A DNA stretch of 64,000 nucleotides from Candidatus Moraniibacteriota bacterium (GCA_028715015.1 JAQTLF010000001.1:29243-93242), one strand, 5' to 3'. Positions 6,898 to 24,852 are shown, counted from the first letter of the stretch. Notes: a model not told the origin generated them from the letters alone. Numbers and translations: made by a program.

Positions 6898-9204
6898 CTA
6901 TTTTCCGATGATTTTTCCGCCTTGCCCCACCTGGTCAAGCTTCACGGAAAGAAGTTTGGAAATTCCATCATCGCCCATGGTCACACCATAGAGAAGTGAG
7001 GCTTGTCGCATGGTTTCGCGATTATGGGTGATGGCGATGAATTGGGTCGTGCCGGAAAGTTCCTGCAAAATCTTGCTGAAACGTCGCGAGTTGGCTTCAT
7101 CAAGAGCCGCCTCCACTTCATCCAAAATCGCAAATGGCGGTGGGTTGTGAGAAATAATGGCAAAAAGAAGCGCCAAGGAAGTGAGCGATCTTTCGCCGCC
7201 AGAAAGCATGGAAAGATTGGCAATCTTTTTTCCCGGAGGACACGCAAAGATTTCCACTCCGATTTCATCGCGCTTTTCGTCTTCCGATTCCTGATTTTCA
7301 TCTTCCTGCTCATCAATTTCTGTTCCATCCTCAGCAACTTTCGCTTTGCGATTTTTTATTTTCAATTTGATCAGATGCGCATTTCCTCCGCCAAAAATGA
7401 TTCTGAAATATTTGGTGAATTCCTTGTTGATTTTTTCGAAAGCTTCCTCAAATTCAACCTTGATGCGTTGGTCCATTTCTTTGATGATGGCTTCCAAGGA
7501 AACAAGGGCATCAGCCAAATCTTTCAATTCCTGAGTGAGAAAATCAAAACGTGCGTTTGTCTCGCTGTATTCTTCAACGATCATCGGGTCAATTCCGCCG
7601 ATTTGTTCCATCTGAAGTTTCAGGCGTGAAATTTCCCTCTCCAGCATTTCCCTGTTGATCTCTTCACCATCAAATTTGAGCGCGGCAACTTCGCATTTAA
7701 GTTCGCTTCTGATTTCGTTGGTCAGATCTTCTTCGCGCACTTCCACGCGAGCCAGTTTTATTTTGGCATCATTGAATTGGTCTTTCAAAGTGTTGAGCTG
7801 TTCTTGTCTTACTCTGGATTCACGTTCCAATTGGAAAAAACGTTCGCGAAGCTGTCTGATTCTTTGATTTTCAGCCGTGATTTCTTTTTCAATTTTTTCA
7901 AGCTCGTCTCTGAGCTGGGTTTCTTTGAGTTGGAATCCTTTTTTCTTATTTTCAAGTTCTTCAATTTTTTTGTTGATCTCTCCGACTTCTTTGGAGTTGT
8001 CTTTCTTGATGGAAACTTCGCCTTTGCCAGATTCTTCATACAGATCAAAAAGTTGTTGTTGGATGGCCCGGGCAGATTCTTTGATGTCCTGCAAATCATC
8101 CATGTTTTCTGCTTCTTCCACTCGAAGAATCAATCTTTCCTGCGCCATGCGGATGTTGGAAAGCTTGGCTTGCACATATTTCAAATCAACAGGAATGATC
8201 TCGATGACTTTCTGATTGGCAAGTTTTTCTTTCTCAACAACGATGCGTCCTTCGGAAATTATCAGCTCGCGTTCAACATCATTGAGCTGCTGTCTTATTT
8301 GTGTTTTTTTTCTTTCCAACTCCTGTTCAGCTCCGCTATCTTGGGCTTTGCCTGATTCCTGATTGAGTTCATCTGTCATTTTGTCCACTTCGCGTTGCAT
8401 GTTCATCATGCCTGCTCCCAACGATTCTTTTTCTTGGGAAAATTTTTCACGTTCGCTTTGGAATTGATGCCACAAAAAAGAAAACAATTTTGTTTGTTTT
8501 TCTTTGAGTTCTTCGGCCACCACTTTTCCTTGCTGCGCTTTCTCAGCTTGGCGTTTGAGCATTTTCAAATGCGGCTCGATTTCACGGATCAACCCTGAAG
8601 TGCGCTGCATGTTTTCTCTGGTCGAATCGAGTTTTTTGACTGCCCTGTCTTTTTTGATCTGATATTGCTTCACTCCGGCAGCATCTTCCAAAACGCTGCG
8701 GCGATCCGCAGGAGTCGAATTTAGCAATGAGTCAGACATTCCCTGGTTGATAACGCAATAGCTTTCTTTTCCCACTCCAGCTTTGGCCAACAAATCCATG
8801 ACATCCAATAAACGTGAACGATTGCCATTGATCAGATATTCCGACTCTCCGGAACGATACAGTTTTCTAGTGATGATGACCTCCGTGAATTCAAGCGGGA
8901 TTCTTTTGTCGGCATTGTCAAAATGAAGAGAAACTTGGGCGCTGGAAAGACGCGCCTTTGTCCCAGACCCTGCAAAAATGATGTCCTCGGCTTTTTTTCC
9001 GCGCAGTGTTTTCATCGATTGCTCTCCCATCGCCCATTTGATCGCATCAGAGGTGTTGGATTTTCCTGATCCATTTGGTCCCACAATGGCCGTTATTCCG
9101 CGTGCTTCACTATCAACATTAAAATTCCCCGCTGGCAAAAATTCCAGCGTGGTTTTATTGGCAAACGATTTGAATCCTGATATTTCAACTTTTTTTAGAT
9201 ACAT
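6898..9204 (-). CDS. smc: chromosome partition protein SMC (short form, 768 aa)
   Basis: N-terminal Walker A GPNGSGKSN; coiled-coil middle; C-terminal signature LSGGERSLTSLALLFAI and Walker B ILDEVEAALD. Confidence 0.85.
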   Translation of the reverse strand: MYLKKVEISGFKSFANKTTLEFLPAGNFNVDSEARGITAIVGPNGSGKSNTSDAIKWAMGEQSMKTLRGKKAEDIIFAGSGTKARLSSAQVSLHFDNADKRIPLEFTEVIITRKLYRSGESEYLINGNRSRLLDVMDLLAKAGVGKESYCVINQGMSDSLLNSTPADRRSVLEDAAGVKQYQIKKDRAVKKLDSTRENMQRTSGLIREIEPHLKMLKRQAEKAQQGKVVAEELKEKQTKLFSFLWHQFQSEREKFSQEKESLGAGMMNMQREVDKMTDELNQESGKAQDSGAEQELERKKTQIRQQLNDVERELIISEGRIVVEKEKLANQKVIEIIPVDLKYVQAKLSNIRMAQERLILRVEEAENMDDLQDIKESARAIQQQLFDLYEESGKGEVSIKKDNSKEVGEINKKIEELENKKKGFQLKETQLRDELEKIEKEITAENQRIRQLRERFFQLERESRVRQEQLNTLKDQFNDAKIKLARVEVREEDLTNEIRSELKCEVAALKFDGEEINREMLEREISRLKLQMEQIGGIDPMIVEEYSETNARFDFLTQELKDLADALVSLEAIIKEMDQRIKVEFEEAFEKINKEFTKYFRIIFGGGNAHLIKLKIKNRKAKVAEDGTEIDEQEDENQESEDEKRDEIGVEIFACPPGKKIANLSMLSGGERSLTSLALLFAIISHNPPPFAILDEVEAALDEANSRRFSKILQELSGTTQFIAITHNRETMRQASLLYGVTMGDDGISKLLSVKLDQVGQGGKIIGK

Positions 9205-9250
9205 TATTCATGGAGCATGGAGCATGGAGCATGGAGCATAAATCATGAAT
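9205..9250 (-). repeat. heptamer CATGGAG x4 tandem repeat abutting the smc start codon
   Basis: catggagcatggagcatggagcatggagca directly 5' of the smc ATG; it creates clustered upstream AUGs, including a mini-ORF ending in UAAUG that overlaps the start. Confidence 0.8.
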
Positions 9251-9367
9251 GTTGGTGACATCTATATTTGTGCCAGATGTTCCACATTATAAGATTTATG
9301 AATATTGTTCTATGTTCTATGTTTTATGTTCTATGACATTGTACTACACTTTTTTATTTTGGGAAAG

Positions 9368-9408
9368 AAAAAAGGCTACAAAGAAATATCTTGTAGCGCT
9401 TTTGGGTG
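9368..9408. terminator. bidirectional intrinsic terminator
   Basis: A-run, GGCTACAAagaaatatCTTGTAGC hairpin, T-run. Confidence 0.55.
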
Positions 9409-9644
9409 GTTTTGGTCTGGGTACATTCGGGATCGAATTGTGCTTTTTGTGAACAAAAATCCACCGAACGCACCCAGCTTTGAGGTTCGCAAAATTTCAT
9501 CGAACCAAAATAGATAAAAAGGGCTTGTGCAGAGGGTTGGGGATGTGTAATGATTTCGTAAGTTTACGCATTACAATATACCCCAATCCCTCTGACACCT
9601 TCATCATATACCCACAGTGATCATTGTCAAGCAAAAATACATAG

Positions 9645-9690
9645 AAAAAAGCCCCGAGCAGAACGCGTCTGTCGGGGCATTTGGTTTTTG
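9645..9690. terminator. bidirectional intrinsic terminator
   Basis: AAAAAA, GCCCCGAGCAGAACGCGTCTGTCGGGGC hairpin, TTTGGTTTTT; adjacent to a perfect 7-bp GC hairpin at 9696-9720. Confidence 0.6.
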
Positions 9691-10165
9691 GGCGACCCGC
9701 GGGGAACTTTCTCCCGCGGGCGCATTATTATAGCACATTTTTTTCAAAATTTTGCGGAGGCAGGGGATTTTCATCCGCTAGCCTTTCCGCGGTCAGATAT
9801 CAGTTATTGGATAGCATCCGCTTACGAAGTCCTCAGCCTCGTGCTGATGCATTCGCCGGCGACGGTTCTTGTCCCGCAGCAGGTTTCCATTTACCGGGCT
9901 GGCAATACAAGTTTGCCAGATTGGATTCAGGAACATCCAGGCGGGAAAGAGAAAATGAATTAGCATCATTCCTCCTCTTTGGCGAAAACAACTTCACTCT
10001 GAGGCGGCCCATTTTTTAGGGCGGCCGAGACCGGGGCGCTACTCGCGCTGGGTTATCCCAGGGATGTGGCCGGCGCCGGCAGGTCGGGCGATCAGGTCGT
10101 TCTTCTTGAAGTCGTCTATGTTTGTATCAAGGGTGTTACGGCTCCACGGCGGACTGTGATTCGAC
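9691..10165. ncRNA. GC-rich (~58% GC) non-coding island of unknown class; candidate structured RNA, strand unresolved
   Basis: ~475 bp with no credible ORF on either strand, embedded in a ~35% GC genome; many short GC helices; an intrinsic terminator is immediately adjacent at its low-coordinate end; the segment GGCGGACUGUGAUUCGACAUG resembles a tmRNA 5' end but no tRNA-like 3' domain was found. Confidence 0.3.
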
Positions 10166-10394
10166 ATGTTACACCTCCAGATTTAAAGTCACCATTCCAT
10201 TTTATTGGAAGGCGCTAACAGAAAAGTATTTACATTGTCTTTCAAAAAATTTCTTACAAAAATACCTTTCCCGTTAGTGCCTTCCAAACATATTGTCTTT
10301 TCCAAAGAGCTGTACACTATTTCAGTGTAAATTTGAGTATAGCGCACTTTTGCAATCCTGTCAAGGGTTAAAAGCTAAAATACCAATTTTTGGC

Positions 10395-10520
10395 TCAAAT
10401 AAAGTAAAATTTTAGCATAAATCTTAATATCAAAATCCAAATGTCAAATAAAATTCAAAAACCAAAATTTTTAAAAAGTATTTTAGAAATTGAGTCATTT
10501 ATTTAACATTTGTCATTGAG
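10395..10520. repeat. degenerate copy of the AT-rich inverted-repeat family (TTTGGATTTTGTCATTTGG motifs)
   Basis: shares the motifs aaaatccaaatgtcaaataaaat, gagtcatttatt and gtcattgagattttggattt with the repeats at 19606-19746 and 21381-21590. Confidence 0.5.
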
Positions 10521-10529
10521 ATTTTGGAT

Positions 10530-11522
10530 TTAGCGCATTATATACGCTGCCATTTCCACCAAGCGATTAGAATATCCCCACTCATTGTCATACCATCCCA
10601 CAATTTTGACTTGATTTCCCATGCTCATGGTCAAAGGCAGATCAACAATGGAAGAATGTGGATTCATTTTGTAGTCCATGGAAACCAGCTCTTTGGTGGT
10701 CGCATCCAAAATGCCATGCAGGCTTCCCTGAGACGCTTTGACAAAAGCCGCATTGATTTCTTCCACGCTTTTCGGAGTTTTCACTGACGCGATGAAATCA
10801 ACAATTGAAACAACCGGGGTTGGCACACGCAATGCGATTCCGTCCAGCTTGCCGTTGAGATGCGGCATCACCTTTCCCACTGTCTTGGCTGCACCTGTGG
10901 TGGTTGGAATGATTGAAAGAGCAGCAGCGCGAGCGCGACGCAAATCACGATGCGGCAAATCCAAAAGGTTTTGATCGTTGGTATATGAATGTGTGGTGGT
11001 CATGAACCCTTGCTCAACATCACAAAGATCATCCAAAACTTTGATCATCGGAGCCAAACAATTGGTAGTGCAAGATCCATTGGAAACAACCGCCTCGCCC
11101 TTGTACTCTTTTTCATTGACACCCAACAAATATACCGGCACGTCATCTTTTGGCGGCGCGGAAAGAACAACTTTTTTTGCTCCGGCAATGAGATGTTTTC
11201 CAGCCGAAACATTGTCCAAAAAAATTCCCGTGCAATCCAAAACAACATCCACCCCGAGTTTGGCCCAAGGCAAATTCGCAGGATCCTTTTCGGAAAAATA
11301 TTTCACCGGTTTTCCGTCAATGATGATCTCATTGTTTTCTTTGTCAACGACAACTTCCCTGCCATACACTCCATAGGAAGAATCGTATTTGAGCAGATGC
11401 GCACTTGTCTCGATATCAGTCAAATCATTGACCGCCACGATTTCCATCTCTTCTTTTTCAAAAACTATTTTCAGTGATGGTCTGCCAATGCGACCAAAAC
11501 CATTGATTGCAACTTTAAGCAT
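10530..11522 (-). CDS. gap: glyceraldehyde-3-phosphate dehydrogenase (start refined to MLKVAINGFGRIGR)
   Basis: NAD-binding GFGRIGR motif and catalytic SNGSCTTNCLAP motif. Confidence 0.95.
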   Translation of the reverse strand: MLKVAINGFGRIGRPSLKIVFEKEEMEIVAVNDLTDIETSAHLLKYDSSYGVYGREVVVDKENNEIIIDGKPVKYFSEKDPANLPWAKLGVDVVLDCTGIFLDNVSAGKHLIAGAKKVVLSAPPKDDVPVYLLGVNEKEYKGEAVVSNGSCTTNCLAPMIKVLDDLCDVEQGFMTTTHSYTNDQNLLDLPHRDLRRARAAALSIIPTTTGAAKTVGKVMPHLNGKLDGIALRVPTPVVSIVDFIASVKTPKSVEEINAAFVKASQGSLHGILDATTKELVSMDYKMNPHSSIVDLPLTMSMGNQVKIVGWYDNEWGYSNRLVEMAAYIMR

Positions 11523-19605: not shown

Positions 19606-19746
19606 GATACAATGACCAAAAAATCTCAAATCTCAATTTCCAATGTCAAATAAAATCCAAAATCTCAAATCCTAAAAATTTTTTAGACATTTTGGCTTGA
19701 GTCATTTATTGGAAATTTGGATTTTGTCATTTGGATTTTAGTTTGA
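19606..19746. repeat. left arm of a long inverted repeat flanking the ruvX-map segment
   Basis: 19649-19746 is the exact reverse complement of 21381-21479; 19606-19648 matches RC(21547-21590) with one mismatch. Confidence 0.9.
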
Positions 19747-21380: not shown

Positions 21381-21590
21381 ATCAAACTAAAATCCAAATG
21401 ACAAAATCCAAATTTCCAATAAATGACTCAAGCCAAAATGTCTAAAAAATTTTTAGGATTTGAGATTTTGGATTTTATTATCAAACGTAGCGAGTGTAAT
21501 AAAAAATTTTTTATTACCGAGCAAGTGCAGATAATATGGTAACCCATATTTGACATTGGAAATTGGGATTTGAGATTTTTTGGTTATTGT
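21381..21590. repeat. right arm of the long inverted repeat (carries a 67-bp internal insertion at 21480-21546)
   Basis: reverse complement of 19606-19746; the insertion contains the perfect palindrome GTAATAAAAAATTTTTTATTAC. Confidence 0.9.
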
Positions 21591-24760: not shown

Positions 24761-24805
24761 AATTATCATTAATCATGGAACATGGAGCATGGAACAAAAA
24801 TTCCA
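24761..24805 (-). repeat. heptamer CATGGAA/CATGGAG repeat abutting the rpsE start
   Basis: aatcatggaacatggagcatggaac. Confidence 0.8.
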
Positions 24806-24852
24806 ATCTGCCACACAATGTTCTATGTTTTATGCTCTATGTTATGTGTTAT

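What the first reader, a model, noticed from the sequence alone, without database searches (positions are those of the whole stretch)
9691..10165. A ~475-bp GC-rich non-coding island between gap and smc, probably an unclassified structured RNA
GC content rises sharply (to ~58% against a ~35% background) over ~475 bp with no plausible ORF on either strand; the only ORFs are low-complexity. The island contains many short G-C helices, for example a perfect 7-bp hairpin at 9696-9720, and is bounded at its low-coordinate end by a strong bidirectional intrinsic terminator (9645-9690), consistent with a minus-strand transcript ending there. An extended -10 (TGCTATAAT, complement of 9727-9735) lies just inside that end. 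A segment GGCGGACUGUGAUUCGACAUG (10148-10168, plus strand) resembles the tmRNA 5' end, but I could find no tRNA-like T-arm or ACCA partner, and RNase P P4 motifs and SRP domain IV are also absent. It is a candidate novel large ncRNA or a degenerate or permuted known one.
Basis: partly seen in the sequence, partly recalled or inferred. Interest (0 to 1): 0.6.

Follow-up and report, generated by a model that had tools for sequence, protein, structure and literature searches.

The report
Hypervariable small-ORF RNA cassette upstream of smc
The GC-rich "island" is the body of a short, separately transcribed unit found in the same slot of related Moranbacteria genomes; it has a conserved hairpin leader and small ribosome-site-led reading frames that differ from strain to strain, and it is neither one large conserved RNA nor any known RNA family.

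Summary
The island is real. It has 54.3% GC against a window mean of 40.2%, the highest 475-nt stretch in the window, and it lies between gap and smc. It matches no Rfam family, tRNA/tmRNA, Pfam family, phage or plasmid.

It is not ORF-free, and it is not one conserved large RNA. On the minus strand it reads as a ~720-nt unit:
- an 11/12 sigma-70-type promoter (10364-10336)
- a 31-bp leader hairpin (10287-10205)
- GGAGGTG-ATG and ORF1 (42 aa)
- a GC hairpin
- GAGGAGG-ATG and ORF2 (58 aa, an orphan)
- a conserved 3' hairpin module
- an intrinsic terminator (9682-9644)

About 15 related Moranbacteria loci carry the same promoter and, in most, the leader upstream of smc. What follows the leader differs greatly. 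ORF1 alleles run from 24 to 57 aa, tiny SD-led ORFs vary, and one 89%-GAPDH relative has almost no island.

Across the cassettes, 23 of 39 sense-strand GGAGG motifs are followed by ATG at start-site spacing. Chance predicts about 4, and the antisense strand has 0 of 10.

My best reading is an unannotated, strain-variable small-peptide (possibly dual-function) RNA locus. Its function is unknown.

The parts
10336..10364 (-). Sigma-70-type promoter, TTGACA-17-TATACT (11 of 12 matches), with TG upstream of the -10 in most relatives
   Evidence: Promoter scan. The same promoter is conserved in 12 related cassettes.
10314..10328 (-). Small 5'-proximal hairpin (ACACU-GAAAU-AGUGU)
   Evidence: Sequence. 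Relatives have different stem sequences at the same place (UAAC/GUUA, CAC/GUG, ACGC/GCGU).
10205..10287 (-). Conserved long leader hairpin (about 31 bp).
   Evidence: Inverted repeat I2. 11-sequence alignment: 98.8% of cells paired against about 50% when slid, with 2 pairs changed on both sides. Leader profile (promoter plus hairpin): nhmmer E=2e-43 in the window and 1e-32 to 7e-51 in relatives with the full leader.
10172..10178 (-). Shine-Dalgarno sequence GGAGGTG, 4 nt before the ORF1 ATG
10039..10167 (-). ORF1, 42 aa: MSNHSPPWSRNTLDTNIDDFKKNDLIARPAGAGHIPGITQRE. It belongs to a hypervariable small-ORF family (24-57 aa). Its 3' half contains the GC-richest stretch and the palindrome GCCGGCGCCGGC.
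   Evidence: Shared motifs with relatives: HGPP/HSPP, TNI, NDL[IV], GAG. GC3 is 74% against 45-46% in gap and smc.
10003..10026 (-). GC hairpin with an A-rich loop (GGCCGCCC-UAAAAAAU-GGGCCGCC), about 12 nt after the ORF1 stop
   Evidence: Folds. L002 has a hairpin at the same place with a different stem and a similar loop, CUCGGCGGC-UAAAAUG-GCUGUCGAG.
9971..9977 (-). Shine-Dalgarno sequence GAGGAGG ahead of the ORF2 start (ATGATG)
9793..9969 (-). ORF2, 58 aa, an orphan: a hydrophobic N-terminal ~24 residues followed by RDKNRRRR. This is the part of the island that has no relative.
   Evidence: No homologue. The only HMMER hit is a weak match summed over repeats. No blastn match in related loci.
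9754..9790 (-). Nested hairpin of the conserved 3' module (GCGGAAAGGC...GCCUCCGC)
   Evidence: About 80% identical to L087 over window 9798-9685. Sequence comparison. Folds.
9727..9735 (-). Extended -10-like TGCTATAAT. It could start a ~75-nt RNA (hairpin, A-rich linker, terminator).
   Evidence: Conserved as TGGTGTATAAT in L087 and L081, deleted in L002.
9696..9720 (-). GC hairpin CCCGCGGG-N9-CCCGCGGG
   Evidence: Relatives have CCCGAGGG...CCCTCGGG, one pair changed on both sides.
9644..9682 (-). Intrinsic terminator (GCCCCGA...UCGGGGC followed by UUUUUU)
   Evidence: I10. Equivalent terminators end the cassettes in relatives.

Best explanation
The island is the body of an independent minus-strand transcription unit of about 720 nt, from a start near 10329 to the terminator at about 9645. 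The unit sits in a variable slot upstream of smc in Moranbacteria (Candidate Phyla Radiation).

How it most likely works:
- A strong promoter drives an RNA with a conserved leader (a small 5' hairpin plus a 31-bp hairpin).
- Ribosomes start at two canonical Shine-Dalgarno sites and make two small peptides. ORF1 (42 aa) belongs to a strain-variable peptide family. ORF2 (58 aa) is an orphan with a hydrophobic head and a basic tail.
- GC-rich hairpins between and after the ORFs most likely stabilise the RNA and terminate transcription, and they may carry an RNA-level function of their own.

The high GC comes from two sources: these hairpins and palindromes, and GC-ending codons in ORF1.

Shown: the anatomy, the strand, conservation of the promoter, leader and Shine-Dalgarno-ORF1 arrangement, family-wide enrichment of start signals, and mosaic replacement of ORF1 alleles.

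Inferred: that the peptides are actually made and are the functional products, and that ORF1's variability reflects diversifying selection (for example a signalling, toxin or recognition peptide) rather than drift.
For: - Promoter, Shine-Dalgarno sites, ORFs and terminator all lie on one strand.
- The same promoter and leader occur upstream of smc in 13 related loci from genomes and metagenomes, and two more (L003A, L107) keep the promoter and small 5' hairpin without the long hairpin.
- In all but two of the cassettes examined (L107, L115), the first strong Shine-Dalgarno site is followed by an ORF of 24-57 aa with recurring motifs: M-K/T-x-x-H/K-G-P/S-P/S, TNI/NIS, NDL[IV], VSTI.
- Across 14 cassettes, GGAGG occurs 39 times on the sense strand and 10 times on the antisense strand. 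23 of the 39 are followed by ATG 3-9 nt later; chance gives 4.0 (maximum 11 in 500 trials), and the antisense strand gives 0 of 10.
- L083 and L102 are 96-100% identical for 330 nt downstream of ORF1 and 85-95% identical in the leader, yet their ORF1 bodies are unalignable.
- L083 differs from L112 by a 57-nt in-frame deletion inside ORF1.
- Tiny ORFs recur with amino-acid-preserving changes: MKPFF/MKPFY, MYTSGFV/MDTYTTGFV, and an identical MTKPILLYDTIC with one synonymous change.
- One gene caller annotated two ORF1 alleles as proteins.
Against: - There is no expression or proteomic data.
- The ORF1 peptides align poorly overall: mean column identity 21%, with only Met1 invariant.
- Part of the apparent peptide conservation is really at the nucleotide level. 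The GC motif TGCCGGCGCCGGCCACATC lies inside ORF1 in the window but after the stop codon in L082, and similar GCGCCGG motifs lie just after the stop in most relatives.
- ORF lengths of 24-57 codons are not unusual for random GC-rich sequence.
- ORF2 has no relative anywhere.
- Most gene callers call nothing in these regions.
- Hairpins at equivalent positions with different stems suggest RNA-level constraint.
Confidence: 0.5

Rival explanations
1. It is a non-coding small RNA, or a set of them. The functional product is the structured RNA itself, and the Shine-Dalgarno/ATG sites recruit ribosomes only to stabilise the RNA or act as decoys. The ORFs are incidental.
For: - The GC content exceeds that of the AT-rich genome, as is typical of structured RNAs.
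- Hairpins sit at equivalent positions with different stem sequences.
- A conserved nucleotide motif is coding in one genome and untranslated in another.
- The leader hairpin is strictly kept.
- The whole unit folds better than shuffles, z = -3.57.
- Many of the 'ORFs' are only 5-16 codons long.
Against: - The island core without its terminators folds only marginally better than shuffles, z = -1.87.
- The body is not conserved between relatives, and is largely absent in L099.
- ATG at start-site spacing after GGAGG is about six-fold over chance; a pure Shine-Dalgarno stabiliser would not need it.
- There is an in-frame deletion and amino-acid-preserving changes.
- No Rfam family matches.
Confidence: 0.25
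2. It is a type I toxin-antitoxin-like locus. ORF2 (hydrophobic head, RRRR tail) would be a small membrane toxin whose translation is held in check by RNA structure, for example the leader segment 10309-10293 pairing with 9991-9975 next to the ORF2 ribosome site. The ~75-nt RNA from the internal TGCTATAAT would act as the antidote.
For: - The ORF2 composition.
- A 17-nt, 82% complementary pairing between the leader and the ORF2 ribosome-site region (I4).
- The long structured 5' region.
- An intergenic, unannotated, strain-variable location.
- A possible small RNA promoter.
Against: - No antisense promoter lies opposite ORF2.
- The putative small RNA is on the same strand and shows no evident complementarity to ORF2.
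- ORF2 exists only in this genome, whereas the conserved ORF1 is hydrophilic.
- The 17-nt pairing is within what chance gives in 1 kb.
Confidence: 0.1
3. It is a decayed remnant of a foreign, GC-rich protein gene, or neutral junk in an insertion hot spot, with no function of its own.
For: - The gap-smc spacer ranges from 200 to 2700 bp among relatives and hosts an ISL3 transposase or other ORFs in some.
- ORF1, ORF2 and a third ORF share one reading frame interrupted by stops.
- ORF1 has unusually high GC3.
Against: - Nothing in the conceptual translations matches Pfam. The two database searches with ORF2 found only one weak, repeat-summed hit, and the ORF1 alignment found only two ORF1 alleles.
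- There is no phage or plasmid DNA match.
- The promoter, leader, Shine-Dalgarno sites and terminators are intact and conserved, which junk would not keep.
Confidence: 0.07
4. It is a long cis-regulatory leader of smc, such as a riboswitch or attenuator.
For: It is always upstream of smc and on the same strand.
Against: - At least two strong terminators intervene, together with another promoter-hairpin-terminator unit (9630-9369).
- A separate conserved extended -10 promoter lies just before smc.
- Relatives with 200-460-bp spacers lack the cassette altogether.
Confidence: 0.05

Closest known systems
Dual-function small RNAs and small-ORF transcripts (e.g. Staphylococcus RNAIII/hld, Bacillus SR1/SR1P, E. 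coli SgrS/SgrT, the psm-alpha operon). From general knowledge.
   Same: A stand-alone promoter and terminator. A hairpin-rich RNA of a few hundred nucleotides. One or several Shine-Dalgarno-led ORFs too small for routine annotation. In the psm-alpha operon, several tiny ORFs each have their own ribosome site.
   Different: There is no sequence or structure homology to any of them (Rfam). No target or regulatory role can be inferred. The ORF1 peptides are hydrophilic and hypervariable.
Allelic peptide loci under diversifying selection (agrD, comC pherotypes; bacteriocin precursors). From general knowledge.
   Same: Conserved flanks with an abruptly divergent short peptide-coding core (L083 against L102).
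   Different: No processing, export or sensor genes are adjacent; the neighbours are gap, hydrogenase genes and smc. There is no recognisable leader-cleavage motif.
Type I toxin mRNAs (hok, tisB, zorO, aapA1). From general knowledge.
   Same: A long structured 5' region, a small ORF with a hydrophobic segment (ORF2), and an intergenic, unannotated location.
   Different: No antisense or divergent antitoxin RNA was found. ORF2 is not conserved. The family-defining ORF1 is not hydrophobic.
Known GC-rich structured RNAs of AT-rich genomes (tmRNA, RNase P RNA, SRP RNA, 6S RNA, OLE, GOLLD, HEARO, ROOL, raiA)
   Same: A GC-rich, ORF-poor island in an AT-rich genome.
   Different: No covariance-model hit even at E<=10. 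ARAGORN found no tmRNA. The island is not conserved among close relatives and is dispensable.

Membership tests
tmRNA (standard or permuted) | A tRNA-like domain (acceptor stem and T-arm) plus a tag reading frame | tested here: not met
   ARAGORN found 0 genes in the window. Rfam gave no hit at gathering thresholds or at E<=10. The 'tmRNA-like' 10148-10168 segment is the antisense of the ORF1 start.
RNase P RNA / SRP RNA / 6S RNA / group I-II introns / large ncRNAs in Rfam | A match to the family covariance model | tested here: not met
   Rfam 15 gave no match at gathering thresholds in the whole window and in 12 related loci. At E<=10 over 9300-10600 the only hits were chance miRNA-type hairpin matches, outside or at the edge of the island.
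Essential housekeeping RNA | Present and alignable in all close relatives | tested here: not met
   The cassette is absent from L004, L006, L007, L008, L010 and L011. The island body is absent from L099 and L107.
Small-ORF (possibly dual-function) transcript | Its own promoter and terminator on the ORF strand | tested here: met
Small-ORF (possibly dual-function) transcript | A Shine-Dalgarno-led ORF kept open in relatives | tested here: met
   ORF1 is present after the first Shine-Dalgarno site in 13 cassettes plus L112. The start-signal statistic is 23 of 39 against 4 expected. For ORF2 this cannot be tested, because it has no relatives.
Small-ORF (possibly dual-function) transcript | The peptide is actually produced, or the RNA has a regulatory target | not testable with these tools
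   This needs metatranscriptome, metaproteome or ribosome-profiling data.
Type I toxin-antitoxin | A small hydrophobic toxin ORF | tested here: inconclusive
   ORF2 has a hydrophobic N-terminal ~24 aa and an RDKNRRRR tail, but it is unique to this genome.
Type I toxin-antitoxin | An antisense or partly complementary antitoxin RNA with its own promoter | tested here: not met
   No plus-strand promoter lies inside the island. No convincing complementarity exists between the putative 75-nt RNA and the ORFs.
cis-regulatory leader of smc | An uninterrupted transcript into the regulated gene | tested here: not met
   Two terminators and another promoter-terminator unit lie between the island and smc.
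Foreign (phage or plasmid) DNA remnant | Similarity to mobile-element DNA or proteins | tested here: not met
   blastn against phages and plasmids found nothing. Pfam found nothing. Viral contig scans gave only chance matches.

The most novel reading that the evidence does not exclude
The promoter-leader-ORF1 cassette is a previously undescribed, Moranbacteria-specific system. A conserved RNA scaffold presents a rapidly exchanged ~100-nt segment: a peptide allele, or possibly an RNA specificity segment. This segment would serve strain-level recognition, signalling or antagonism in these episymbiotic, reduced-genome bacteria. The GC-rich downstream modules and tiny ORFs would be interchangeable accessory parts.
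Probability: 0.25. Interest if true: 0.7.

Novelty: new variant of a known kind. Interest (0 to 1): 0.45.

Why it matters
Candidate Phyla Radiation genomes are about 1 Mb and tightly packed, so keeping 1-2.7 kb of gene-free DNA with several promoter-to-terminator units next to smc is unexpected. Routine annotation misses all of it.

If the peptides or RNAs are expressed, this locus gives a concrete, comparable family for studying small-protein and small-RNA biology in uncultured episymbionts. It would also provide a strain-variable marker. The family has roughly 15 loci, a conserved leader that can serve as a search handle, and sharply mosaic alleles.

For the scan itself, the case shows that 'GC-rich and no long ORF' does not imply a single large structured RNA.

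Tried and rejected
- **tmRNA, RNase P, SRP, 6S, introns and large ncRNAs.** Rfam at gathering thresholds and at E<=10, plus ARAGORN, found nothing.
- **The window's own genome in the gene-position index.** Exact-protein look-ups of GAPDH failed for two start choices.
- **Foreign DNA.** There is no phage or plasmid blastn match. Viral-contig scans with the leader 20-mer and two island motifs gave only chance hits or none.
- **ORF2 homologues.** The word-index search found none. A full HMMER search of 1.84 billion representatives gave one hit, to a 1232-aa repeat protein (10/25 identities per repeat, score summed over 4 repeats). I judged it spurious.
- **Pfam on all candidate ORFs of both strands.** Nothing.
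- **Repeated or mobile element.** The island has no second copy in the 64-kb window.
- **CsrA-sponge idea** (GGA motifs around the leader). No CsrA-like ORF is in the window. Not pursued further.
- **Integron attC-like reading of the leader hairpin.** The arms do not fit RYYYAAC/GTTRRRY, and the variable segment begins after the hairpin rather than inside it (sequence reading).
- **Diversity-generating retroelement.** The ORF1 alleles differ by indels and complete replacement, not by adenine-specific substitutions, and no reverse transcriptase is nearby.
- **Covariation in the 3' module.** With only four sequences the alignment is poor and the test uninformative.

Full report
**1. The observation**

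Window 9691-10165 has 54.3% GC. The mean for 475-nt windows is 40.2% (sd 3.8), and this is the highest such stretch in the 64 kb. The best 200-nt sub-window reaches 57.5%.

The flanking genes are confirmed as GAPDH (10530-11522, minus) and SMC (6898-9204, minus). The spacer 9208-10529 is one of the longest stretches without a large ORF in the window, and it is the most GC-rich of them.

- the 8-bp hairpin at 9696-9720
- the stem plus U-tract at about 9644-9682
- TGCTATAAT on the complement of 9727-9735

The contrast of '58% against 35%' is overstated.

**2. Known families**

Rfam 15 finds nothing at gathering thresholds in the whole window. At E<=10 over 9300-10600 it finds only chance miRNA-type hairpin hits, outside or at the edge of the island. 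ARAGORN finds no tRNA or tmRNA.

Phage and plasmid collections have no similar DNA. None of the ORFs on either strand matches Pfam.

**3. Anatomy on the minus strand**

Read on the strand of gap and smc, the region is an orderly transcription unit:

| Coordinates | Feature |
|---|---|
| 10364-10336 | Promoter TTGACA-17-TATACT, 11 of 12 |
| 10328-10314 | Small 5' hairpin |
| 10287-10205 | ~31-bp hairpin |
| 10178-10172 | GGAGGTG |
| 10167-10039 | ATG and a 42-aa ORF1 |
| 10026-10003 | GC hairpin with an A-rich loop |
| 9977-9971 | GAGGAGG |
| 9969-9793 | 58-aa ORF2: hydrophobic first ~24 residues, then RDKNRRRR |
| 9790-9754 | Nested hairpin |
| 9735-9727 | TGCTATAAT |
| 9720-9696 | CCCGCGGG hairpin |
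| 9682-9644 | Terminator |

So 'no plausible ORF' does not hold.

The whole unit folds better than shuffles on both strands (z = -3.57 and -3.18). Without the 3' hairpin and terminator the excess is marginal (z = -1.87, 5 of 100 shuffles as good). That is weak support for one large, globally folded RNA.

**4. Relatives**

GAPDH-anchored loci identify the organism's relatives as Moranbacteria (Candidate Phyla Radiation). In these genomes the gap-smc spacer ranges from about 200 to 2700 bp.

blastn of the window's spacer against the relatives aligns only the leader region, not the island. A 20-mer from the leader hairpin retrieved further true homologues from metagenomes. Look-ups of close GAPDH homologues and of one ORF1 allele added more.

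A leader profile finds exactly one copy in the window. It finds one copy in each of L002, L005, L081, L082, L083, L087, L096, L099, L100, L102, L112 and L115. L003 has two copies, and L107 has a truncated one.

Wherever the flank is available, smc lies downstream on the same strand. gap is not always upstream.

The leader hairpin is kept in all 11 sequences aligned: 98.8% of cells are paired against about 50% when the partner is slid. It is so conserved in sequence that only 2 pairs show changes on both sides.

**5. What follows the leader varies**

The content after the leader is modular and highly variable.
- L099 (89% GAPDH identity) has the leader, a Shine-Dalgarno site, a 25-aa ORF1 and then terminators. 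Most of the island is simply absent.
- L107 has only a promoter, a small hairpin, a Shine-Dalgarno site, MKPFY and a terminator.
- L002 and L081 have 600-nt bodies that are 65% identical to each other. They include a hairpin with a conserved loop (UCUCGACAUG) and a stem that differs at three positions on both sides.

For the window's own island:
- the ORF1 region aligns weakly with L002, L082 and L081 (67-74%)
- the last ~115 nt (9798-9685) aligns with L087 at about 80%
- the middle ~215 nt, including ORF2, aligns with nothing

ORF2 has no credible protein relative in 5.8 billion clustered or 1.84 billion representative sequences.

**6. Coding or not**

*Evidence for translation*

Across 14 cassettes GGAGG is four-fold enriched on the sense strand (39 against 10). 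23 of the 39 are followed by ATG 3-9 nt downstream. Chance gives 4.0 (maximum 11 of 500 trials), and the antisense strand gives 0 of 10.

The first such site is followed by an ORF of 24-57 aa in all but two of the cassettes examined (L107, L115). These ORFs share recurring motifs (HGPP/KGST, TNI/NIS, NDL[IV], VSTI, GAG), which the window's ORF1 also carries (HSPP, TNI, NDLI, GAG).

L083 and L112 differ by a 57-nt in-frame deletion within ORF1.

Tiny ORFs recur with amino-acid-preserving differences:
- MKPFF and MKPFY
- MYTSGFV and MDTYTTGFV
- MTKPILLYDTIC, with one synonymous change

*Evidence against a purely peptide view*

The ORF1 alignment is poor overall (21% mean column identity).

The 19-nt GC motif TGCCGGCGCCGGCCACATC is inside ORF1 in the window but lies after the stop codon in L082. 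Similar GCGCCGG palindromes sit just after the stop in most relatives.

Hairpins at equivalent positions keep their pairing with different sequences.

*My reading*

I conclude that both layers exist: translated small ORFs embedded in hairpin-rich RNA.

ORF1's GC3 of 74%, against 45-46% in gap and smc, fits either RNA-structure constraint or biased codon choice.

**7. Mosaicism**

L083 and L102 are 85-95% identical in the promoter and leader, and 96-100% identical for 330 nt from the last two ORF1 codons to the terminator. The segment between the leader hairpin and the ORF1 stop is unalignable and differs in length.

This is replacement of an allele inside a conserved scaffold, not uniform drift. 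It resembles loci under diversifying selection, but that remains an inference.

The slot as a whole is an insertion hot spot. An ISL3 transposase sits in it in L105, a 415-aa ORF in L009, and two tandem cassettes in L003.

**8. Verdict**

The most likely explanation (about 0.5) is an unannotated, strain-variable small-peptide transcript, possibly dual-function, whose GC-rich hairpins stabilise and terminate it.

The rivals are:
- a purely non-coding small RNA with ribosome-binding stabilisers (0.25)
- a type I toxin-like reading centred on ORF2 (0.1)
- a decayed foreign gene or junk (0.07)
- an smc leader (0.05)

The last is contradicted by the intervening terminators, by a further promoter-hairpin-terminator unit at 9630-9369, and by smc's own promoter.

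The locus belongs to no described family. In kind it is closest to small-ORF and dual-function RNAs. The absence of ORFs and the idea of a single ~475-nt structured RNA are not.

Noticed in passing
window 9369-9630 (minus strand): A second small transcription unit lies between the island and smc. It has a promoter TTGACA-16-TATGAT (9630-9603), a long hairpin at 9530-9594 (GUGUCAGAGGGAUUGG...CCAACCCUCUG) and a terminator at 9369-9403. It recurs in L099, L107, L083/L084, L004, L096, L098 and L100/L101 (weakly, E about 0.002, in the last three), including a locus that lacks the cassette. Its order relative to the cassette differs between genomes. It matches no Rfam family.
   Followed up: partly
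window 9209-9239 and 9306-9335; also 24773-24843: 7-nt tandem repeats lie just upstream of the smc start: CATGGAG x4.4 and TGTTCTA x4.3. The same pair of motifs occurs in another intergenic region of the window. Relatives carry different short repeat units at the same place (for example ataaagt/cataaagt, catgtta).
   Followed up: partly
window 10431-10529; 19642-19739; 21389-21473: AT-rich motifs (aaatccaaaat / tttggatttt) are shared between the region just downstream of gap and two other intergenic regions, partly as inverted copies.
   Followed up: no
L112 480-680; L005 7500-7640; L003 7590-7770; L096 5450-5640; L102 4830-5000: A third conserved non-coding unit (...GAAGATACTGTGGCAA...GCTAAAATTTTCACTGCGC...) occurs in the gap-smc spacer of several relatives, often preceded by a 'gtcattccggac...tccggaatccagg' palindrome. 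It is absent from the window.
   Followed up: no
L105 2845-4032; L009 7326-8573; L003 7856-9545: The gap-smc spacer is an insertion hot spot. It holds an ISL3-family transposase in L105, a 415-aa ORF in L009 and two cassettes in tandem in L003.
   Followed up: partly
window 10167-9604 (minus strand): ORF1, ORF2 and a third 56-aa ORF (9774-9604, running through the terminators) are all in the same reading frame, separated by TAG, TGA, TGA and TAG stops. No homology supports a former single gene.
   Followed up: partly
window 10194-10204 and the equivalent positions in L002, L081, L082, L087, L099: The CCUUCC 3' arm of the leader hairpin is followed within 4-13 nt by a second GGAAGG-like element. 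In L099 this becomes GAAAGG where the arm is CCUUUC. This gives a possible alternative small hairpin or an extra ribosome-site-like element just upstream of the true Shine-Dalgarno sequence.
   Followed up: no
L099 3539-3940; L103 1-195; L005 3343-3723: Genes of the 23S_rRNA_IVP/bAvd four-helix-bundle family lie upstream of gap, within the hydrogenase cluster, in some relatives. No reverse transcriptase or template/variable repeat pair was seen.
   Followed up: no
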